From a virus (Duplodnaviria; Caudoviricetes), in IMG/VR virus record IMGVR_UViG_2524614838_000004, positions 1 to 64,000 of that record: a stretch of 64,000 bases of DNA; one strand, written 5' to 3'. Shown piece by piece: positions 878-53,200 of this stretch. The stretch's first letter is position 1. Each line of letters starts with the position of its first letter. The notes under the pieces are model-generated. The model searched no databases, had not been told where the DNA came from, and saw nothing but the letters and a program-made list of their open reading frames with translations. A program made the position numbers and the translations under genes.

Positions 878-928
878 ATGCGCATTTGTGAGTATATGCT
901 AAAATGGTATCAGTATTTGACACACTAA
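878..928 (+). pseudogene. 5' stub of an interrupted host gene (MRICE..., YlmC/YmxH-like start) running into phage DNA; candidate attL near 885-900
   Basis: Strong RBS TAAGGAGG at 863-870, ATG 878, 16-codon ORF ending head-to-head with the integrase stop; family assignment rests on five residues only. Confidence 0.5.
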
Positions 929-2499
929 ATTTTCGGATAAATTTTAAGGTTAAAATCTGGGATTTCTTTCTTGGTTCCGCGCTTTTCTTTTGAATATTCA
1001 ACCTTTTCCAAGACCTCCTTTAATAAAGTATTTTGTTCTTCTGGTGTTAACGTATTAAAATTATCTAGTAAAAACTCTATTTTCGGTATTAGCAACGTTC
1101 TTTTTTTCTCAAAATCCTCTTGGCGTTTTTGTTGTTTAAGTAGTTCATCTAGTGCATTTTGTGCGGAATTTATTTCCTCTCTTATTTTTTCCACCCTATT
1201 CTTCAGTGTATCTGCATCATAGACCCCTGTCTCAAATGCCTCATATGCCTTGTCTAACCGTTTTTTGTGCTTATCTATAAAATCCATAGTCTCATTTATT
1301 TTGGTCTGCGTAATAGCTATTCCAACAACTGAAAGTTGAGGAGAGGAAATGGAGATGCGATAATCAGCAAGCCAAGATCTCAATGCTAACATTAATTTAT
1401 CAATTACATCATCAACAGCGGCTCCGGGCATATCGCATTTCTTACATAAGAACAATTCTTGTTTAATTCTTCCACTAACTGGACGGCGAATCATTGTATA
1501 CCCACAGCCTTGGCATTTTAGAAGTCCAGCAAGAGGATTTTTGATTGTTCCACTTAGCCAAACAGGGGGTTTAGATCGAGAATTGAATACTTTTTGTGCC
1601 AGATCAAAGGTTTCTTTATCAATGATAGGTTCATGTAATGCAGGAAAATAATCACAATCTTTGTTGATTGGCGTAGAATTTTTAACAGTGCCATTAGTCA
1701 TGACCTTGACTATTTTGCGTCTGCCAGCTGGTATTTCTCCAATATATGTTCGATTAAGCAAGATATCACGTATGACGTTATGAGCCCATGTCTCACTATA
1801 CCTAGGCTTAATAAACATTTTGTCCAGTGTTTTACCGATAGCAGTAACACTGATAGGTTTATTATAGGTTTCTGGAGTTCCTGCAGTATACATAGCATAA
1901 ATCAAACGCACAATTTCTGCTTCTTCGGGAACTATTTTAAGGCTATAGCCTTTTTGTCCCTTTAGTTTATAGCGTTCATACCCAAATGGTGCTTTTCCCC
2001 AAGGCCATTTCCCTTCCTTGGCAGTGTTGTATTTTCCATCTCGTAATCGCCTACGAATTGTTTTATATTCGCGCCGGCTCATGAAAAGTCCAAATTCAGC
2101 ATACTCCTCATCAAACTCATTGTTGGGATCGAAGGTTTTCATCGGAGTAATTATCTTTGTATTGCCATATTTGAAAGTTTCCATAATGAGCCCCTGGTCC
2201 CTTGTATCTCCACGAGCCAAACGTTCCAGTTCTACGACTAGAACACCATTCGGTTGATCGTTTTCAATATCGGTAAGCAAACGCATCATTTCTGGCCTTG
2301 CGGCAATAGTTTCTCCGGACACAACCTCGCGATAAACTTTAGAAATTGAAATTCCTAAATGGTTAGCGAGCTCCTTCAAACGGTTCTCATGTCTAGCTAA
2401 AGTCTCGCCTTCTCCGTGTGCCTCTGCTTCTACATCTTCACGTGACTTGCGTAAGTACATATAATACTTACCATTGGGATCTAGCGTCAATTGTATCAT
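925..2499 (-). CDS. Large serine recombinase (prophage integrase)
   Basis: YLRKSRED catalytic motif, VVELERLARGD, recombinase domain, CxxC...CxxC zinc ribbon, coiled coil; start set at the RBS-preceded ATG 2499. Confidence 0.95.
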   Translation of the reverse strand: MIQLTLDPNGKYYMYLRKSREDVEAEAHGEGETLARHENRLKELANHLGISISKVYREVVSGETIAARPEMMRLLTDIENDQPNGVLVVELERLARGDTRDQGLIMETFKYGNTKIITPMKTFDPNNEFDEEYAEFGLFMSRREYKTIRRRLRDGKYNTAKEGKWPWGKAPFGYERYKLKGQKGYSLKIVPEEAEIVRLIYAMYTAGTPETYNKPISVTAIGKTLDKMFIKPRYSETWAHNVIRDILLNRTYIGEIPAGRRKIVKVMTNGTVKNSTPINKDCDYFPALHEPIIDKETFDLAQKVFNSRSKPPVWLSGTIKNPLAGLLKCQGCGYTMIRRPVSGRIKQELFLCKKCDMPGAAVDDVIDKLMLALRSWLADYRISISSPQLSVVGIAITQTKINETMDFIDKHKKRLDKAYEAFETGVYDADTLKNRVEKIREEINSAQNALDELLKQQKRQEDFEKKRTLLIPKIEFLLDNFNTLTPEEQNTLLKEVLEKVEYSKEKRGTKKEIPDFNLKIYPKI

Positions 2500-2544
2500 C
2501 TCCTTGTTAAATGTACGTAAAAAAGGGCATAAAAATAACACCCA

Positions 2545-31154: not shown

Positions 31155-31183
31155 TTGAATATTGATGGTTGGTGGTGTATAAT
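31155..31183 (+). promoter_or_regulatory. Moron A promoter containing the left 17-nt inverted repeat (31157-31173)
   Basis: TTGAAT-17-TATAAT; GAATATTGATGGTTGGT. Confidence 0.75.
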
Positions 31184-31217
31184 TATCTTATCAAATTTTA
31201 TACAAGGGGGATAAGAA

Positions 31218-31589
31218 ATGGAGCAAAGAATTATTAATGGTCAAGCATATGCACACCCGTTTGAGTACATCATGCGTGACGTATTCCAATGTGACAGAGG
31301 CGGAGCTTGCGGAATGGCAGATGCTGATTTTATTAGAAAGCATCCTTATACAGCGGTAGCAGCAACATGTATGTACATATATGCTAATGCCGACGAGAAG
31401 AAAAAAGAAGAAATAGAGAAATTTCTTGAAGATGCCTATTTTCATTTCCAATTTGACTTAGACACACTTCTCTCATTTGAAACGAATGAGAAAGAAATTG
31501 ATGGTGGATCATATACTTTGAGTTATGATAACGGAGAAGCAACAATTGAGGCGCTTGAAGAAAAGTTCAGGAATATTTGTAAGAAATAA
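31218..31589 (+). CDS. Moron A, hypothetical acidic protein
   Basis: Own promoter, RBS and terminator. Confidence 0.75.
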   Translation: MEQRIINGQAYAHPFEYIMRDVFQCDRGGACGMADADFIRKHPYTAVAATCMYIYANADEKKKEEIEKFLEDAYFHFQFDLDTLLSFETNEKEIDGGSYTLSYDNGEATIEALEEKFRNICKK

Positions 31590-31593
31590 TTGT

Positions 31594-31629
31594 AAAAACC
31601 AACTATCAATATTCGGTAGTTGGTTTTTT
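31594..31629 (+). terminator. Moron A intrinsic terminator containing the right repeat (31598-31614)
   Basis: ACCAACTATC-AATATTC-GGTAGTTGGT followed by a T-run. Confidence 0.8.
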
Positions 31630-31641
31630 GTTACCCAAAAT

Positions 31642-31689
31642 GAAAGGAGGTCGGAGCTTCTGGCCAGGAGACACGTGTCGGCTCCTTTC
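31642..31689 (+). promoter_or_regulatory. SD-sequestering twin-palindrome leader, copy 3
   Basis: GAAAGGAG/CTCCTTTC stem enclosing CTGGCCAG and GACACGTGTC; ATG 6 nt after the stem. Confidence 0.7.
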
Positions 31690-31695
31690 GAGAAA

Positions 31696-32790
31696 ATGTA
31701 TTTGCTTAAAGAAGGATTGAAATTCCCTAAAACAACGTTTGTCAATATGAAACATATGCCATTTGAGATAAAACCATCTTTTAGCGCACAGCGCATAGTA
31801 CAGTGGCACGAACATTGGGGTGGATTAATTTACATAGCATTTAGCGGAGGTCTTGATAGCACGGTGTTGGCTCATTTAGTCTGCATGACTTATCGAGAAT
31901 ATGGACTGACCGGAGAGATACCATTGGTTTTTTGTGATACTGGAGTGGAATTCCCGGAGATTAGAAAATTTGTTAAGGAATATGTCGCATGGTTGAAAAC
32001 CCAATTTCCAGAGCTGACTATTACTTTAAAAATAATGTACCCAAAACATAATTTCAAGTGGGTGTGTGAGCATAAAGGATTTCCTCTGATCAGCAAAGAT
32101 ACAGCCAGTAAGATTAAAAAGTTAAGACATGGAAAACTAAGCGAGAAGTATCGCAATTATCTTCTTAATGGTGATGAACGTGGAAAATTTGGCATGTTGG
32201 CTAAAAAGTGGCATTATCTAGCGGATAAACAGATTACAGAAGAGGATATTTCGGACATATGCTGTGAGATTCTTAAAAAAGAACCTTTCAAGAGATATGT
32301 AAAGGAGACAGGTAGATATCCATTTATCGGGATTACACAGGACGAGGGATTTCGTCGAGAAAATCAGTACAATCATACGGGGTGCAACGTATATGATGGT
32401 ACTACCATTAAAAGTCAACCGTTAGGATTCTGGACGAATCAGGATGTTCTACAGTATAAAATGGAGAATGAAATTCCCATTTGCTGTGTATATGGAGAGG
32501 TAAGAAAGAATCATTGTGGGATATATGAATTAACGGGAGAACAAAGAACTGGTTGTATCATATGTGGCTTTGGCTGTCATCTGGAAGCAGAGCCGAATCG
32601 CATACAACGCCTGGGAACTTCTTCTATTGATACACATAGAGAAGTATATAATTGGGGAATGAGAATTGAGAACAATGGAGTTACTTATCAAGAAGCATTG
32701 AAACATTGTGGCGTAGCTACGGAGACCTGGGAATCGATTGGGCAAATGAATCTTGCTGATTTTCTGAATGAAGAAAGGAAGGAACTCTGA
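31696..32790 (+). CDS. PAPS-reductase-family (PP-loop) protein
   Basis: AFSGGLDSTVL, CDTGVEFPE, CC..LKK, QRTGC..CGFG. Confidence 0.85.
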   Translation: MYLLKEGLKFPKTTFVNMKHMPFEIKPSFSAQRIVQWHEHWGGLIYIAFSGGLDSTVLAHLVCMTYREYGLTGEIPLVFCDTGVEFPEIRKFVKEYVAWLKTQFPELTITLKIMYPKHNFKWVCEHKGFPLISKDTASKIKKLRHGKLSEKYRNYLLNGDERGKFGMLAKKWHYLADKQITEEDISDICCEILKKEPFKRYVKETGRYPFIGITQDEGFRRENQYNHTGCNVYDGTTIKSQPLGFWTNQDVLQYKMENEIPICCVYGEVRKNHCGIYELTGEQRTGCIICGFGCHLEAEPNRIQRLGTSSIDTHREVYNWGMRIENNGVTYQEALKHCGVATETWESIGQMNLADFLNEERKEL

Positions 32791-48101: not shown

Positions 48102-48174
48102 GGGGAATAAGCTAATCTGGTGAAAGCGCCTGCCTGAAGAGCAGGAGAGATAGGGTCGGAACCTATACTTCCCA
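48102..48174 (+). tRNA. tRNA-Phe(GAA), non-canonical
   Basis: CCTGC-CTGAAGA-GCAGG anticodon arm; T loop GTCGGAA and one acceptor mismatch. Confidence 0.6.
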
Positions 48175-48700: not shown

Positions 48701-48772
48701 TGGGCTATTGCCAAACGGTAAGGCACAGGATTTTGATTCCTGCATTTCCCGGTTCGAATCCGGGTAGCCTGA
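48701..48772 (+). tRNA. tRNA-Gln(TTG)
   Basis: TGGGCTA/TAGCCTG acceptor, CAGGA-TTTTGAT-TCCTG, GGTTCGAATCC. Confidence 0.9.
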
Positions 48773-48787
48773 TTTGCACATTGGAAA

Positions 48788-48816
48788 TTGAATATTGATG
48801 GTTGGTGTGGTATAAT
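48788..48816 (+). promoter_or_regulatory. Moron B promoter containing the left 17-nt inverted repeat (48790-48806)
   Basis: TTGAAT-17-TATAAT with TGn; repeat identical to moron A. Confidence 0.75.
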
Positions 48817-48847
48817 TTTTCTATTACAAATGATGAGGGGGGTTATT

Positions 48848-49882
48848 ATGGATAAACGATATCAGGTTTTTGTTAGTTCAACATATAAAGATTTACAAGA
48901 TGAGCGTAAAGAAGTTATGCAAGCATTACTTGAATTAGACTGCATACCGGCTGGAATGGAACTTTTTCCAGCTTCGAATGATGACCAATGGACTTTAATA
49001 AAAAAAGTTATTGATGACTGTGACTATTATATTTTGATTTTAGCAGGTAGATATGGTTCTGTTAATGAAGATGGTATGGGTTATACTGAAATGGAATATC
49101 GATATGCTTTGGCGGCGAATAAGCCTATAATAGCTTTTCTGCATAAAAATCCAGGAGATATATCATCAGCTAAAACTGAGGATACGCAAGAAGGTAAGGA
49201 AAGATTAAATCTATTTAGGGATTTGGCCCAAAAAAAGATGACTAAATATTGGACTAACCCTTACGATCTAGGAAGCGTAGTTTCAAGGAGTATGATTACT
49301 CTTATTAAAACATTTCCTGCTACAGGGTGGGTCAAAGCTGATAATATAACAGATGAAAATACGATGAAAGAATTACTTAGACTTCAAAAAGAAAACAAAG
49401 AATTAAAAGAACAACTGGAGTTAAGTAATATTCAAGCACCTGATGGAGCGGAAAATTTCTCACAAGGTGAAGATACAATTGTATTGAATTTCGTGTATAG
49501 GTATTTTGATAAACAAAACAATAGATATTCAAGCTCAATGGATTTTGTGTTTACATGGAATGAATTATTTAAAGTTGTAGCTCCTTATTTGGTTAATGAA
49601 TGTGACGAGGTAGATATGACAGAGGTTATTACAACCTACATGAAAGAAAAATGTCATGATGAAATAATAATTTTAAAGTCAGAAATGAAAATACGGTCAT
49701 TTGATAAAATTCAATTAAAAGTTGGTCATTTTCAAATAATCAAAGTACAATTTCAAGCACTTGGATTGATACAGAAAAGTATCAAGAATAGAAGTGTTAA
49801 AGATAACTTAACATACTGGAAATTAACCCCATATGGAGAGAGGATAATGACTCAATTAGTCGCAATTAAAAAAGAAAAATAA
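48848..49882 (+). CDS. Moron B, DUF4062 (TIR-like) domain protein
   Basis: YQVFVSSTYKDL.DER..V..ALLE...P.GMELFPA...CDYYILILAGRYGS...TEMEY.YA; AT-rich. Confidence 0.85.
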   Translation: MDKRYQVFVSSTYKDLQDERKEVMQALLELDCIPAGMELFPASNDDQWTLIKKVIDDCDYYILILAGRYGSVNEDGMGYTEMEYRYALAANKPIIAFLHKNPGDISSAKTEDTQEGKERLNLFRDLAQKKMTKYWTNPYDLGSVVSRSMITLIKTFPATGWVKADNITDENTMKELLRLQKENKELKEQLELSNIQAPDGAENFSQGEDTIVLNFVYRYFDKQNNRYSSSMDFVFTWNELFKVVAPYLVNECDEVDMTEVITTYMKEKCHDEIIILKSEMKIRSFDKIQLKVGHFQIIKVQFQALGLIQKSIKNRSVKDNLTYWKLTPYGERIMTQLVAIKKEK

Positions 49883-49889
49883 GATTTCG

Positions 49890-49924
49890 CTACCAACTAT
49901 CAATATTCGGTTGGTAGTTTTTTT
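49890..49924 (+). terminator. Moron B intrinsic terminator containing the right repeat (49892-49908)
   Basis: CTACCAACT-ATCAATATTC-GGTTGGTAG followed by a T-run. Confidence 0.8.
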
Positions 49925-49945
49925 ATGGGAAAATGAGGTGGGAAC

Positions 49946-50083
49946 ATGAGTAACGTTGAAATAGTATTTATGGTGATTAAATTCGTAGTATTTTTATACG
50001 CAGCTTGGAAGTTTGTAACTGGAGATAAGGAAAAGATAAGTACGTTATGGTATGGAATATTCCTGATAGGTTTATTGCTGTGA
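49946..50083 (+). CDS. Small membrane protein
   Basis: 45 aa, two hydrophobic segments, RBS GAGGTG. Confidence 0.55.
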   Translation: MSNVEIVFMVIKFVVFLYAAWKFVTGDKEKISTLWYGIFLIGLLL

Positions 50084-50091
50084 GGTGGATT

Positions 50092-50274
50092 ATGGACGGA
50101 TTCCAGCTTTGCTTACGTAACTTTTGCTCTTACTGCCCGGATTTTGAGCCGGAGGTCGATAAAGAGGATTGTACCTTGATCGGGGATTCTTCTTCCAAAG
50201 TCATGAATATTATCCGGTGCCAGAATGAGGGCCGGTGTATCAATATTGTGGAAAATTTGGAAGGTAGGGTATGA
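50092..50274 (+). CDS. Hypothetical protein
   Basis: RBS; Cys-rich. Confidence 0.55.
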   Translation: MDGFQLCLRNFCSYCPDFEPEVDKEDCTLIGDSSSKVMNIIRCQNEGRCINIVENLEGRV

Positions 50275-50570
50275 CTATGCCGCCGAAATGGAATGAAAGC
50301 CCGGAAACGGTATATATGCGTGGTACTGATGGCACGGAGATCCCTGTAAGTGATATTCCAGTGCTTGATTTTAAAATGGACCAAGATGAAGAACTGCAAA
50401 AGGCCATAGACGAATTTAAGAAGCCTGTTTCCTTGGATTTCTCAATGGCTGTGTTATTACCACCGGGAGAATTGGCCGCTGTCATATGTGGTTTATGTAC
50501 CTTGGAGCAGGTCCAGCAGAATAATTGGCGGCGGCTTCATGGCATGCCTATGAAAAGGAGGACGAAATGA
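50271..50570 (+). CDS. Hypothetical protein
   Basis: Coupled ORF. Confidence 0.6.
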   Translation: MTMPPKWNESPETVYMRGTDGTEIPVSDIPVLDFKMDQDEELQKAIDEFKKPVSLDFSMAVLLPPGELAAVICGLCTLEQVQQNNWRRLHGMPMKRRTK

Positions 50571-50953
50571 GATTAAGAGATGTTTTGGCAGTTATTGATG
50601 ATAATGAAACGGTTGCTATCAGCCTTGATTATAAGAGCCTAAAGAGCTGTGAAAAATTAAGAAGAGAGCATTTAATTGATCTGCTTGATATGACGGTAAA
50701 GGGTGTTAAGACTGAAAGTTGCTCAATGCTGTTTATCACAGGAGAAGCAACGATTACAAGTGATACAACCAACCTACATGCAGATGAGATTGAGCATTTT
50801 TTACGGGTAGAGATTGAAGTTTCAAGGAATCGTATTGAAAGTAAAGAGGAAATTAGAGCCTTTAATGGTGTAGGGGTTGGACCTGAAGCCGCAAAAGAAT
50901 TGAATAAACGGCATATTGCGTTTTGCCAGCAGCTATTAGATATGATTCATTAA
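50567..50953 (+). CDS. Hypothetical protein
   Basis: RBS AAGGAGG. Confidence 0.55.
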   Translation: MRLRDVLAVIDDNETVAISLDYKSLKSCEKLRREHLIDLLDMTVKGVKTESCSMLFITGEATITSDTTNLHADEIEHFLRVEIEVSRNRIESKEEIRAFNGVGVGPEAAKELNKRHIAFCQQLLDMIH

Positions 50954-50977
50954 AACCTGTAGGAGGTTGGGGAAATT

Positions 50978-51184
50978 ATGGAAAAGAGTAATCCAGTTGT
51001 AATATATCGTTGCCGCCGGTGCGGTAAAGAATTTCAAGAGACAGGTGTTATAAGAGGAAGCATGCAAACTAATGGTGTTGATGTGCCTGTTGGTCCAGTT
51101 TATTTGTATCATCTTTGTGATGATGGCATATTTGGACTGGATGATTTAATCGGAGGATATGAGGTGAAAACAAAAAATGGATAG
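50978..51184 (+). CDS. Hypothetical protein
   Basis: RBS; CRRC motif. Confidence 0.55.
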   Translation: MEKSNPVVIYRCRRCGKEFQETGVIRGSMQTNGVDVPVGPVYLYHLCDDGIFGLDDLIGGYEVKTKNG

Positions 51185-51449
51185 AGGCTATACAGCTAAA
51201 GAGGGATTAGAAATGGGGGAAAGCATAATGGCAGGTTTTATAAGTGGTTTTAAAAAATCCATGAATCCTCCGGAAGATGGATTTGACGGGCAAGCGGATA
51301 TAAGAATCTTACCAGATGGAAGCCGTTGGGCAGTTTGTCCTTATTGTGGAAAAAAGGCAGTAAAGATTTTGCCAGAAACAAAAATACATATGATGCCGTA
51401 TAAATGCAAGAACAGCAAGTGCCAAAGTGATTTTATTGTAAATGTATAA
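51177..51449 (+). CDS. Hypothetical zinc-ribbon protein
   Basis: CPYC and CKNSKC motifs. Confidence 0.6.
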   Translation: MDRGYTAKEGLEMGESIMAGFISGFKKSMNPPEDGFDGQADIRILPDGSRWAVCPYCGKKAVKILPETKIHMMPYKCKNSKCQSDFIVNV

Positions 51450-51532
51450 AGTGATTTTTAAAGTCTGATTTAAACCAGTGCCTTGTGAGCCTTCGGACCT
51501 TTGTTAATAACAGAGGAAGGAGGCTTTTTTCT

Positions 51533-53200
51533 ATGGATTTCCAGGAACACCGGGAAATAATCAAAAAATTAAAGCGGCAGATTGAATCACCGCCTTCTTA
51601 CGACATTCTAAACATTCTGTTATCAGAACTCCAATATACAATGCAGGATAATCCGGATTTGCCCGTTGAGGAACGGGATTTCATCATGACCTATTCCGGG
51701 TTTATCAAGAAATGGGCCGTCACTAGATTTGTCCAGACAATGGATACCTGTTGGGATGATCTGTACTGGAAAACATTGCATTTTGAGGCTCCGTATTTAT
51801 TCGAATCGTATCTGATTTATCTGGAGAAGAATCGGGAAGCGAAGGATCGCTTTTATTTACCGAAACGCAAGCAGCTGAATAAGCATGGATTGATTCAGGC
51901 CATGCAGGATCTGGAAGATGATAGGCTGGATATCTTAAGCATATCAATGCCACCTGGGACGCAGAAAACGACCTTGGAGAAGTTCTTTGCCTCATGGGTA
52001 ATTGGCAAGCACCCAGATGATTTCAGTTTGTTCTATTCCCATAGTGGCGATATTACCAGAATGTTCTATGACGGTATTTATGACATCACTACAAATTCAG
52101 ATGAATACACCTGGAGCGAAATATTCCCAGACGTGAGACTTGAAAGTACGAATGCCAAGACTGAGACAATAAATTTTAATAAATACAAACCTTTCCCCAA
52201 CATACAGTGTACGTCCATTGGCTCAAAGAATGCCGGTAAAGTTAGGTGTAACCGGTACCTGTATTGTGATGATCTTATTGGCGGCATTGAAGAAGCTCTG
52301 AATAAGGTTCGGTTAGATAAACTTTGGTCCCTATACAGTGTGGACGGTAAACAGAGAAAAATGGACGGCTGTAAAGAGATTCACATAGCGACGAGGTGGT
52401 CTGTCCATGATGTGATTGGACGAATAAAAAACCTATATCAAAAAAGCGACAGAGTGAGATTTATTGAGGTTCCAGATATTGATCCAGTGACTGAGGAATC
52501 AAACTTTGACTATGAATACAATGGCTTTTCAGTAGCTTTCTTTAATGATCAGGCACTGGCTATGGACGAAATTTCTTATAAGTGTCTTTATAAAAGCCAG
52601 CCTATTGAACGTGAGGGTCTGCTATATCATGAAGATGAATTAAGACGATACTTTACACTTCCGCAGGGAGAACCTGATGCCTTACTTGGAATATGTGATA
52701 CGAAGGACAAAGGAACAGACTTTATGTTTCTTCCTTGCGTGGCTCAGTACGGAAGTGATTATTACTGCCTGGATTGTGTTTGTGATGATAATTCTGACTA
52801 TGGAATTCAATACGAAAGGTGCTCCCAAATAATAGTGGATAATAAGCTGCAGCAGTGCCAGTTCGAAAGCAATAATGGCGGTAGCCGGGTAGGGTACGAA
52901 GTGAATAAACTGGTGGAGCAAAAGAATGGCCGTTGTAACATCACCACTAAATTCACTGATAGCAATAAGGAAACAAAGATTATCGTAAATGCGGACTGGG
53001 TAAAGAAACATGTTTTATTCAAAGATTCTTCTCTTTACAAAGCCAAAAGTGATTATGGGGTTATGATGAGTTTTCTGCTTAGTTATTCAGTGAAAGGTAA
53101 GAACGTTCATGATGATGTACCCGATGGCTGGGCGCAGTTTGCATTGTTCACACAAAATATGGGTGGCGCTAAAGTCACAGTTTTCCAGAGACCGTGTTAA
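51533..53200 (+). CDS. terL: Terminase large subunit
   Basis: SMPPGTQKTT Walker A-like, YCDDL, IATRWSVHD, CDTKDKGTD, FESNNGG, HDDVPD. Confidence 0.9.
   Translation: MDFQEHREIIKKLKRQIESPPSYDILNILLSELQYTMQDNPDLPVEERDFIMTYSGFIKKWAVTRFVQTMDTCWDDLYWKTLHFEAPYLFESYLIYLEKNREAKDRFYLPKRKQLNKHGLIQAMQDLEDDRLDILSISMPPGTQKTTLEKFFASWVIGKHPDDFSLFYSHSGDITRMFYDGIYDITTNSDEYTWSEIFPDVRLESTNAKTETINFNKYKPFPNIQCTSIGSKNAGKVRCNRYLYCDDLIGGIEEALNKVRLDKLWSLYSVDGKQRKMDGCKEIHIATRWSVHDVIGRIKNLYQKSDRVRFIEVPDIDPVTEESNFDYEYNGFSVAFFNDQALAMDEISYKCLYKSQPIEREGLLYHEDELRRYFTLPQGEPDALLGICDTKDKGTDFMFLPCVAQYGSDYYCLDCVCDDNSDYGIQYERCSQIIVDNKLQQCQFESNNGGSRVGYEVNKLVEQKNGRCNITTKFTDSNKETKIIVNADWVKKHVLFKDSSLYKAKSDYGVMMSFLLSYSVKGKNVHDDVPDGWAQFALFTQNMGGAKVTVFQRPC

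What the first reader, a model, noticed from the sequence alone, without database searches (positions are those of the whole stretch)
48788..49924. Self-antiterminating moron cassette B: same 17-nt pair around an unrelated DUF4062 gene
Seen: identical left (48790-48806) and right (49892-49908) repeats to cassette A, 17.6 kb away, around a different 1-kb cargo. The terminator 3' arm differs (GGTTGGTAG versus GGTAGTTGGT) while the 17-mer, including the G-U position, is unchanged. Inference: the 17-mer is constrained by something other than the terminator stem, which supports the long-range antiterminator model and a reusable cassette chassis. Here it would guard the path to terL. Pairing must span about 1.1 kb, which is the weak point.
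Basis: partly seen in the sequence, partly recalled or inferred. Interest (0 to 1): 0.8.

Follow-up and report, generated by a model that had tools for sequence, protein, structure and literature searches.

The report
Promoter-terminator-matched prophage gene cassette
A prophage gene of unknown function sits in a standard plug-in cassette, reused around dozens of unrelated genes in Lacrimispora phages, whose promoter carries a 17-base copy of the reverse complement of its own terminator, which may let transcripts from upstream pass that terminator.

Summary
The 17-mer pair at 48790-48806 and 49892-49908 is identical to that of cassette A (0 of 100 shuffles reach four copies).

- **A family, not a pair.** I found 107 such cassettes in Lacrimispora prophages, other Lachnospiraceae and gut viral contigs. 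Each has a conserved sigma-A-type promoter, one sense ORF and a conserved intrinsic terminator. Among the 46 genus cassettes the cargo falls into 39 unrelated groups.
- **Placement.** The left 17-mer always lies upstream of the predicted transcript start. The right 17-mer always covers the terminator 5' arm plus loop.
- **Constraint beyond the hairpin.**
  - Pairing holds through five different hairpin registers.
  - It co-varies at positions 1, 11, 13 and 15.
  - The terminator 5' arm matches the promoter copy better than its own 3' arm.
- **Context.** Cassettes sit in tight operon junctions, and related phages have empty sites. The repeats lie inside the inserted block and there is no target duplication, so they are not transposon ends.

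My best reading, at about 45% and untested, is a read-through-specific long-range antiterminator. The rivals are a recombination linker or ancestral palindrome, a protein site, and a processing stem.

I found no description in the papers searched. Earlier notes of this scan report similar cassettes on other DNA.

The parts
48701..48772 (+). tRNA-Gln(UUG). It is the conserved left neighbour of this cassette slot in related prophages.
   Evidence: ARAGORN and Rfam. The same tRNA followed by the same promoter block occurs in G012, G016, G029, G033 and G046.
48773..48789 (+). Conserved upstream block of the promoter module (TTTGCACATTGGAAATT).
   Evidence: It is shared by the cassettes of this sub-family in other species. 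It is not part of the inverted repeat.
48788..48816 (+). Predicted sigma-A-type promoter: TTGAAT, 17-nt spacer, TATAAT with a TG extension. The predicted transcript start is near 48823.
   Evidence: Consensus scan, 10 of 12 matches plus TG. The module is conserved in 60 promoter-type copies in the genus. The promoter is predicted only.
48790..48806 (+). Left 17-mer GAATATTGATGGTTGGT, covering the end of the -35 box and the spacer. It is present only in RNA that starts upstream of this promoter.
   Evidence: In all three promoter registers seen in the family it lies upstream of the predicted start.
48835..48842 (+). Ribosome-binding site (GAGGGGGG) of the cargo gene.
   Evidence: Read from the sequence; it lies 5 nt before the ATG.
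48848..49882 (+). Cargo gene: a 344-aa DUF4062 protein of unknown function.
   Evidence: Pfam PF13271, E = 6.8e-30. No PADLOC hit. More than 7,500 full-length homologues, mostly unnamed; the named ones are from Bacillota.
49892..49908 (+). Right 17-mer ACCAACTATCAATATTC, covering the terminator 5' arm plus loop. It is the reverse complement of the left 17-mer with one G.U.
   Evidence: Predicted duplex energy with the left copy is -22.5 kcal/mol.
49888..49924 (+). Predicted intrinsic terminator: a 10-bp stem (including CTACCAAC/GTTGGTAG), a 10-nt loop and a T7 tract at 49918-49924.
   Evidence: ViennaRNA gives -12.6 kcal/mol. The simple scan missed it because its loop limit is 8 nt.
49935..50083 (+). 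RBS and 45-aa ORF that begin 11 nt after the T tract. It is the first gene of the run leading to terL (51485-53200).
   Evidence: No promoter above chance level lies between 49925 and 51485. terL is assigned only by a sub-threshold Pfam hit (E = 0.00067, 20.3 bits against a cut-off of 27).
31155..31629 (+). Sister cassette A. Promoter 31155-31183, left 17-mer 31157-31173, 123-aa cargo 31218-31589, right 17-mer 31598-31614, 3' arm 31615-31624, then the T-run.
   Evidence: The terminator hairpin is predicted at -16.1 kcal/mol.

Best explanation
Cassette B is one copy of a standard single-gene expression cassette used by temperate phages of Lacrimispora and some other Lachnospiraceae. It has a conserved sigma-A-type promoter, one cargo ORF (here a DUF4062 protein) and a conserved intrinsic terminator. 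It sits inside a co-directional phage operon, between tRNA-Gln and the small genes that lead to terL.

Proposed mechanism (inferred, not shown):
1. RNA started at the cassette's own promoter begins about 17 nt after the left 17-mer. It lacks that sequence, so the terminator hairpin forms and the transcript ends at 49924. This insulates the downstream packaging genes from the cargo promoter.
2. RNA coming from upstream, such as the tRNA operon during lytic growth, contains the left 17-mer.
3. When the terminator 5' arm and loop emerge, the left 17-mer can pair with them over 16-17 bp (-22.5 kcal/mol), against 10 bp (-12.6 kcal/mol) for the hairpin. The terminator is then pre-empted and transcription continues towards terL.

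The signal sensed is therefore where the transcript began. The same conserved end modules also let related phages swap cargo by recombination.
For: **Shown**
- The repeats are real and non-random.
- 107 cassettes have the same architecture. At core positions 2-16, 1525 of 1605 pairs are Watson-Crick and 36 are G.U.
- Cargo is a single sense ORF in 44 of 46 cassettes, in 39 unrelated groups.
- The left copy is upstream of the predicted start in all three promoter registers.
- Complementarity covers loop bases and bases upstream of the stem, through five different hairpin registers.
- Matched changes:
  - Position 11: A-U 47, G-C 56, G.U 4, A.C 0.
  - Position 15: G-C 89, A-U 8, G.U 7, A.C 1.
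  - Position 13: a three-way change in the cassette at L053:7480.
- The terminator 5' arm keeps a T that wobbles with its own 3' arm (59 cases, against 7 T-A and 1 C-G). The same T is Watson-Crick with A9 of the promoter copy in 96 of 107 cassettes.
- 59 of 86 family terminators have the upstream reverse-complement match, against 5 downstream and 2 with a reversed query.
- The minimum-free-energy fold of read-through RNA forms the 17-bp helix and no hairpin. Own-promoter RNA forms the hairpin. Across the family this holds in 34 of 44 and 42 of 44 cassettes.
- The downstream gene is co-directional in 40 of 46 cassettes. Its RBS starts a few nt after the T tract in roughly half of them.
- Empty sites are tight stop-to-RBS junctions. 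The terminator must therefore be passed for downstream expression.
- No known antitermination RNA is present in the window.

**Inferred**
- The pairing forms in time during transcription.
- The promoter and the terminator are active.
Against:
- Pairing must span 0.25-1.45 kb (1.1 kb here) within the fraction of a second before the 3' arm emerges.
- The left 17-mer is not predicted to be especially free before the terminator appears: a median of 6 of 17 bases are unpaired.
- The strand-specific signature is weak overall. G.U against A.C is 36:20 among cassettes and 25:17 among distinct combinations.
- A.C mismatches recur at positions 3, 5 and 16.
- Some cassettes have terminator loops with indels that cut pairing to 10-12 bp.
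- 27 of 86 family terminators lack a close upstream partner.
- The covariation is equally expected if one protein reads both sites, or if promoter and terminator are inherited as linked modules.
- The architecture was not found for unrelated terminators: 2 of 146. There is thus no independent, convergent example in these data.
Confidence: 0.45

Rival explanations
1. Recombination linkers or an ancestral palindrome. The promoter and terminator modules are conserved because they are the homologous ends through which related phages exchange cargo, as with PeSL elements. The promoter 17-mer is merely the loop plus 3' half of an ancestral terminator-like palindrome (ACCAACTATC-AATATT-GATAGTTGGT) that happens to carry -35-like hexamers. 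The complementarity then has no RNA function.
For: - The same slot holds different cargo in different species.
- Empty and occupied sites differ by a block replacement with no target duplication.
- Terminator-then-promoter composites occur in tandem arrays.
- The loop core AATATT is itself palindromic, so the promoter copy is also a near-direct repeat of the terminator loop plus 3' arm.
- The feature is confined to one homologous family.
Against: - It does not explain why the terminator 5' arm and loop stay an exact, ungapped complement of the promoter copy, while the direct-repeat alignment needs an indel and a mismatch.
- It does not explain why the 5'-arm T is kept although C would pair better with the terminator's own 3' arm: 59 wobble against 1 C-G.
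- It does not explain why loop bases are conserved through five stem registers.
Confidence: 0.25
2. Protein binding site. A phage or host DNA-binding protein recognises the asymmetric 17-bp site at both ends of each cassette. It would repress the cargo promoter, perhaps with looping to the second site. Sub-families would then reflect different protein specificities.
For: - The sequence is conserved whatever the promoter register.
- Both sites change together between sub-families.
- There is no strong overall G.U excess over A.C.
Against: - The window holds only the four cassette copies and none in the immunity region, so this is not the prophage repressor's operator.
- No candidate protein was identified.
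- A second operator would not need to be always inverted and always exactly on the terminator 5' arm plus loop.
- Hybrids at the sub-family positions 11 and 15 are 11 G.U against 1 A.C, which a DNA reader does not predict.
Confidence: 0.15
3. Processing stem. In read-through RNA the two 17-mers pair to form a double-stranded stem that RNase III cuts. This excises the cargo mRNA from the phage polycistron, as leader-trailer stems do around rRNA. The idea is compatible with antitermination rather than exclusive of it.
For: - The same long-range helix is predicted.
- It brackets exactly one gene, from upstream of its RBS to just after its stop: 2-14 nt after the stop in about 28 of the 46 genus cassettes.
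Against: - 16-17 bp is short for RNase III (own knowledge).
- The helix overlaps the terminator arm, which a pure processing site would not need.
- No complementarity extends beyond the 17-mers.
Confidence: 0.1
4. Terminal inverted repeats of a transposable element moved by a transposase acting in trans.
For: An inverted repeat brackets a small cargo, and there are many copies with different cargo.
Against: - The inserted block begins 37 nt outside the left repeat and ends about 24 nt outside the right one.
- It replaces 26 nt of the empty site.
- There is no target-site duplication.
- Cassettes sit in a few fixed slots.
- The cassettes scanned carry no transposase.
Confidence: 0.05

Closest known systems
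PeSL (promoter-early stem-loop) cassettes of T4-type phages (Arbiol et al. 2010, PMC2839356; Comeau et al. 2014, PMC4122927)
   Same: - Short conserved promoter and terminator motifs are repeated through a phage genome.
- They flank single, mostly unknown, non-essential ORFs.
- They give transcriptionally self-contained modules.
- They serve as linkers for cargo insertion, deletion and replacement between related phages.
   Different: - PeSLs are composite stem-loop-plus-promoter units acting as direct repeats in virulent T4-like myoviruses of Gram-negative hosts.
- Here the promoter and terminator are separate modules at the two ends of each gene, in temperate Lachnospiraceae phages.
- Here the promoter carries an exact reverse complement of the terminator 5' arm plus loop. 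I did not see that feature in the parts of the PeSL papers I read (abstracts and term-matched passages).
- No sequence similarity was tested or is expected.
Phage morons (Juhala, Hendrix and co-workers; own knowledge)
   Same: A promoter-ORF-terminator unit is inserted between two genes that are adjacent in related phages, and its cargo is unrelated to the neighbours.
   Different: Classical morons are individual insertions with their own idiosyncratic signals. Here one standard chassis recurs around at least 39 unrelated cargos. No moron has been described, to my knowledge, with a built-in way to let operon transcription through.
Transcription attenuators (terminator and antiterminator alternative pairing, trp or riboswitch type; own knowledge)
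   Same: The three-segment logic is the same. Segment 1 pairs with segment 2 more stably than segment 2 pairs with segment 3, and only the 2:3 pairing is a terminator.
   Different: Attenuators lie within a leader of 100-300 nt before the gene and sense a ribosome, protein, tRNA or ligand. Here segments 1 and 2 are separated by the whole gene (0.25-1.45 kb), and the input would be the transcript's start point.
IS10/Tn10 fold-back inhibition (Davis, Simons and Kleckner 1985; own knowledge; no paper describing it was found in the library)
   Same: A sequence just upstream of the element's own transcript start is present only in read-through RNA from outside. It pairs with a downstream segment, so externally and internally started RNAs behave differently.
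   Different: In IS10 the pairing hides the transposase ribosome-binding site to silence read-through RNA. Here it would hide a terminator arm to let read-through RNA continue.
Lambda sib/tI retroregulation of int (own knowledge)
   Same: The fate of RNA at one terminator depends on which promoter it came from.
   Different: Lambda relies on N-modified polymerase and RNase III cleavage of the extended hairpin, not on a cis-complementary upstream segment.

Membership tests
Phage moron | Own promoter directly upstream of the cargo | tested here: inconclusive
   Consensus TTGAAT-17-TATAAT with a TG extension. The module is conserved in 60 copies. No transcript start data.
Phage moron | Own intrinsic terminator directly downstream | tested here: inconclusive
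   A 10-bp hairpin at -12.6 kcal/mol plus a T7 tract. It is predicted only.
Phage moron | Inserted between genes that are adjacent in related phages | tested here: met
   Shown for a sister slot of the same cassette family: empty L282 against occupied L266, L279 and L281. For the tRNA-Gln slot itself only differently filled sites were found, and no empty one.
PeSL-type regulatory cassette | Conserved promoter and terminator motifs repeated around unrelated single ORFs | tested here: met
   107 cassettes. The 46 genus cassettes carry 39 cargo groups.
PeSL-type regulatory cassette | Composite stem-loop-plus-promoter unit acting as a direct repeat on both sides of the ORF | tested here: not met
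   In the window the left end has only the promoter and the right end only the terminator. Composites occur only in tandem arrays elsewhere, such as L053, L073 and L033.
PeSL-type regulatory cassette | Recombination between the motifs, giving mini-circles | not testable with these tools
   It needs inverse PCR on induced cultures.
Terminator/antiterminator attenuator | Two mutually exclusive helices sharing one segment, with the non-terminator helix the more stable | tested here: met
   -22.5 against -12.6 kcal/mol in B and -16.1 in A. The minimum-free-energy fold switches with the transcript start. This holds in 34 of 44 cassettes.
Terminator/antiterminator attenuator | All segments lie within a short leader upstream of the regulated gene | tested here: not met
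   The segments are 1,102 nt apart here, and 243-1,453 nt across the family, on either side of the ORF.
Terminator/antiterminator attenuator | Covariation that keeps the antiterminator pairing | tested here: inconclusive
   Two Watson-Crick pair types occur at positions 1, 11 and 15, and there is one three-way change at position 13. There are few independent events, and the same pattern is expected for a shared protein site.
TIR-bounded transposable element or MITE | Inverted repeats at the extreme ends, with a target-site duplication | tested here: not met
   The repeats lie 37 and about 24 nt inside the inserted block, there is no duplication, and 26 nt are replaced.
Integron gene cassette | Promoterless ORF plus an attC site, next to an integron integrase | tested here: not met
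   Each cassette has its own promoter. Cassettes lie singly in phage operons. An integron integrase was not searched for.

The most novel reading that the evidence does not exclude
These phages carry a plug-and-play gene cassette whose terminator is conditional on transcript origin. It stops RNA made from the cassette's own promoter. It is disarmed in cis, across the whole gene, by a 17-nt sequence found only in RNA arriving from upstream. Accessory genes could then be dropped into essential phage operons without polarity and without any antitermination protein.
Probability: 0.4. Interest if true: 0.85.

Novelty: new variant of a known kind. Interest (0 to 1): 0.72.

Why it matters
Phages pick up accessory genes (defence, resistance-like and metabolic genes) as self-expressed units. 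How such a unit can sit inside an essential operon without blocking it has only been explained where the phage has a processive antiterminator.

- **If the pairing works as proposed.** It would be a protein-free, portable solution: a terminator that tells apart transcripts by where they started. That would be a new regulatory principle, and an attractive insulator part for synthetic biology.
- **If the RNA model fails.** The family still gives a defined, searchable signature for cargo slots in Lachnospiraceae phages. These are common gut and environmental anaerobes. The slots hold many uncharacterised single-gene candidates, including matches to predicted defence families (PDC-S31, PDC-S15) and an Mrr-like nuclease, besides DUF4062 and GNAT acetyltransferases.

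Tried and rejected
- **Public phage records.** Megablast of both cassette regions against phage records found nothing.
- **Defence annotation of the window's cargos.** PADLOC gave nothing for either.
- **Neighbouring genes.** PHROGs gave no regulator or terminase-small assignment for the small ORFs at 49946-51449.
- **Known antitermination RNAs.** Rfam found only three tRNAs.
- **Antisense promoter in the right copy.** Rejected, because no -10 follows it on the minus strand.
- **Fold-back masking of the cargo RBS by the left 17-mer.** Rejected, because there is no complementarity.
- **Longer complementarity beyond the 17-mers.** None seen.
- **Accessibility of the left 17-mer before the terminator emerges.** Not distinctive.
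- **Unrelated terminators with the same upstream-complement design.** A scan of about 1.5 Mb of phage-rich loci found essentially none: 2 of 146, one of them a divergent family member.
- **Overall G.U against A.C asymmetry as proof of RNA-level selection.** Too weak once redundancy is removed.
- **Cis against trans permutation test.** p < 1e-4, but I discount it because it mostly reflects sub-family structure.
- **Literature.** Searches for a described self-antiterminating moron or a Lachnospiraceae cassette family found none.
Full report
**1. The observation**

The left 17-mer GAATATTGATGGTTGGT is at 48790-48806. The right 17-mer ACCAACTATCAATATTC is at 49892-49908. It is the reverse complement of the left copy, apart from one position that reads G.U on plus-strand RNA.

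The same pair stands at 31157-31173 and 31598-31614. The window holds four copies within 3 mismatches. Shuffles give a mean of 0.34, and none of 100 shuffles reaches four.

The left copy lies inside a consensus promoter. This is TTGAAT, 17 nt, TATAAT with a TG extension, at 48788-48816. The predicted transcript start near 48823 is therefore downstream of the left copy.

The right copy is the 5' arm and loop of a hairpin followed by seven T (49888-49924). The hairpin is predicted at -12.6 kcal/mol.

The cargo is a 344-aa DUF4062 protein. It has thousands of full-length, uncharacterised homologues; the few that carry names are from Bacillota.

**2. Where the window lies**

The window is a prophage in a 6.38-Mb genome. 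It carries a serine recombinase at 925-2541. The ORF at 51485-53200, taken here as terL, has only a sub-threshold Pfam match to a T7-terminase RNase H-like domain (E = 0.00067, 20.3 bits against a cut-off of 27).

**3. It is a family**

- With one mismatch allowed, 40 of 49 genomes of the genus carry the 17-mer. The reversed control gives almost nothing. The copies are very often convergent pairs 300-1,100 bp apart.
- In one genome from each of 400 other Lachnospiraceae genera, only 3 have an exact copy.
- Named hits include Enterocloster, Hungatella, Butyribacter and Mediterraneibacter.
- From forty 20-kb regions I extracted 46 promoter-to-terminator pairs. The viral and named contigs gave 77 more. 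After removing duplicates there are 107 cassettes, with 56 distinct 17-mer combinations.

**4. Anatomy of the family**

- *Cargo.* Each cassette has one sense ORF (44 of 46), 47 to 565 aa long. In about 28 of the 46 genus cassettes the stop codon lies 2-14 nt before the right 17-mer. The 46 cargos fall into 39 unrelated groups.
- *Cargo families.* They include GNAT acetyltransferases, DUF2971 (PADLOC candidate PDC-S31), an FRG-domain protein, a match to PADLOC candidate PDC-S15, an Mrr-like nuclease, MsrA, a short-chain dehydrogenase, RidA, TraX, a glyoxalase and DUF4062.
- *Promoter module.* It is conserved for some 30-45 nt upstream of the 17-mer. It is used in three registers, with the -35 box upstream of, at the start of, or inside the 17-mer. 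In all three the 17-mer is upstream of the predicted start.
- *Terminator module.* It has at least five registers of stem relative to the 17-mer:
  - sense positions 1-10 (the main type, and the G11 type);
  - positions 5-12 (the TAATA type);
  - positions -3 to 7;
  - positions -2 to 8 (window cassette B);
  - an extended stem that takes in the former loop.

  In every register the 17-mer is on the 5' side.

**5. Evidence that the complementarity is constrained**

- At core positions 2-16, 1525 of 1605 pairs are Watson-Crick, 36 are G.U, 20 are A.C and 24 are other mismatches. The end positions 1 and 17 fray.
- The bases that pair with the promoter copy include terminator loop bases and bases upstream of the stem. 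The hairpin itself does not constrain these.
- Matched changes occur between sub-families:
  - Position 11 is A-U in 47 cassettes, G-C in 56, G.U in 4 and never A.C.
  - Position 15 is G-C in 89, A-U in 8, G.U in 7 and A.C in 1.
  - Position 1 changes from G-C to U-A.
  - One cassette (L053:7480) has changed position 13 in the promoter copy and in both terminator arms together.
- In the main stem register the 5' arm keeps a T. That T forms a wobble with the G of its own 3' arm (59 cases, against 7 T-A and 1 C-G). It is Watson-Crick with A9 of the promoter copy in 96 of 107 cassettes. The 5' arm is thus tuned to the promoter copy rather than to its own partner.
- The window's two cassettes are hybrids.
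- In a scan of all hairpin-plus-T-tract sites in the fetched loci, 59 of 86 family terminators had an upstream match (2 mismatches or fewer) to the reverse complement of 5' arm plus loop. Controls gave 5 downstream and 2 with a reversed query. Only 2 of 146 unrelated terminators had such a match.

**6. Genomic context**

The downstream gene is co-directional in 40 of 46 cassettes. In roughly half of them its RBS begins a few nt after the T tract, which leaves no room for a promoter.

One recurrent slot lies before a conserved small gene that begins LRKSSKD. For this slot I found both occupied and empty sites. The empty sites are tight junctions: a stop codon, about 20 nt, then the RBS.

I compared an empty site (L282) with occupied sites that have a homologous upstream gene (L266, L279, L281).
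- The inserted block starts 37 nt upstream of the left 17-mer and ends about 24 nt after the right one.
- It replaces 26 nt of the empty site.
- There is no target duplication.

The 17-mers are therefore not transposon termini.

The tRNA-Gln slot of cassette B holds a different cargo in G012, G016, G029, G033 and G046. No empty version of it was found.

Between 49925 and terL there is no promoter match above chance. The window has no Rfam antitermination RNA.

**7. Thermodynamics**

- The duplex of the two 17-mers is -22.5 kcal/mol. The hairpins are -12.6 (B) and -16.1 (A) kcal/mol.
- RNA that starts 60 nt upstream of the left copy folds, at minimum free energy, with all 17 long-range pairs and no terminator hairpin. 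This holds whether the RNA is cut just after the loop or after the T tract.
- RNA that starts at the predicted native start forms the hairpin.
- Across the family this holds in 34 of 44 read-through RNAs and 42 of 44 own-promoter RNAs.
- This shows what is favoured at equilibrium, not what happens during transcription.
- My rough estimate (inference) is as follows. The 5' arm is exposed for a few tenths of a second before the 3' arm emerges. With a tethered partner at an effective concentration of tens of micromolar, and ordinary RNA association rates, capture is possible but not assured.

**8. Reading**

The best fit is a terminator that depends on transcript origin.
- Own-promoter RNA lacks the left copy and stops.
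- Operon RNA carries the left copy and passes.

This explains several features together:
- the placement of the left copy upstream of the start;
- the fixed overlap of the right copy with the 5' arm;
- conservation beyond the stem;
- the retained wobble;
- insertion into tight operons.

It remains an inference. The test that could separate RNA pairing from strand-symmetric DNA-level explanations is only weakly positive overall: 25 G.U against 17 A.C among distinct combinations. It is clearer at the sub-family positions 11 and 15, at 11 against 1. I estimate these as perhaps 7 or 8 independent events.

The rivals are given with their evidence in the Rival explanations section:
- a PeSL-like linker or relic of an ancestral palindrome;
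- a protein site present at both ends;
- an RNase III processing stem, which is compatible with antitermination.

**9. What is known**

The closest described systems are PeSL cassettes of T4-type phages and classical morons. The logic resembles attenuators and IS10 fold-back inhibition.

I found no description of this family, or of a self-antiterminating moron, in the papers searched.

Earlier unchecked notes of this scan report inverted-repeat-bounded promoter-gene cassettes in a gut Clostridia phage. They also report a 15-nt upstream complement of the terminator in another genome, read there mainly as cassette ends. The sister cassette A was noted on this window.

**10. Verdict**

The feature is real, recurrent and apparently undescribed. 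The chassis idea is established here. The antiterminator idea is the leading hypothesis, but it has not been tested.

Noticed in passing
window 48102-48174 (+): A third tRNA-like gene found by Rfam (44.8 bits) but not by ARAGORN. It lies upstream of tRNA-Arg (48450) and tRNA-Gln (48701), so the cassette follows a three-tRNA cluster.
   Followed up: no
window 31630-31700 (+): The terminator of cassette A is followed by a conserved leader (..ATGAAAGGAGGTCGGAGC..) before the PAPS-reductase-domain gene. The same leader follows cassettes in G006, G016 and G033 (loci L035, L040, L047, L049). It therefore marks a second fixed cassette slot. Another first-stage note describes it as a hairpin that locks the Shine-Dalgarno sequence.
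   Followed up: partly
L005 (G000:C1:5281081-5281097), outside the window: A lone terminator-type copy (GTATATTGATAGTTGGT with the standard 3' arm and T-run) lies after a 165-aa ORF in the same genome. No promoter-type partner is within reach.
   Followed up: partly
L053 (G044:C1:2387000-2406999): A dense array of at least six cassettes from different sub-families lies within about 10 kb. Terminators are followed within 60-90 nt by the next promoter, and the spacers between them contain a small conserved hairpin-like word (ATCAGTTAAACTGAT).
   Followed up: partly
L094, L096, L119, L184 (Lachnospiraceae genome contigs and one gut viral contig): A terminator variant carries an 11-nt insertion (AATAACGAATA). 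It turns the former loop into extra stem, so the whole 17-mer becomes base-paired within its own hairpin.
   Followed up: partly
L053:7892, L068:9704, L012:1500: In these cassettes the terminator loop is replaced (ACCAACTATCAACCAGGTAGTTGG). Only about 12 of 17 positions can then pair with the promoter copy. They are natural test cases for whether loop pairing matters.
   Followed up: no
window 925-2541 (-): A large serine recombinase (Resolvase, Recombinase and zinc-ribbon domains) lies at the left end of the prophage.
   Followed up: no
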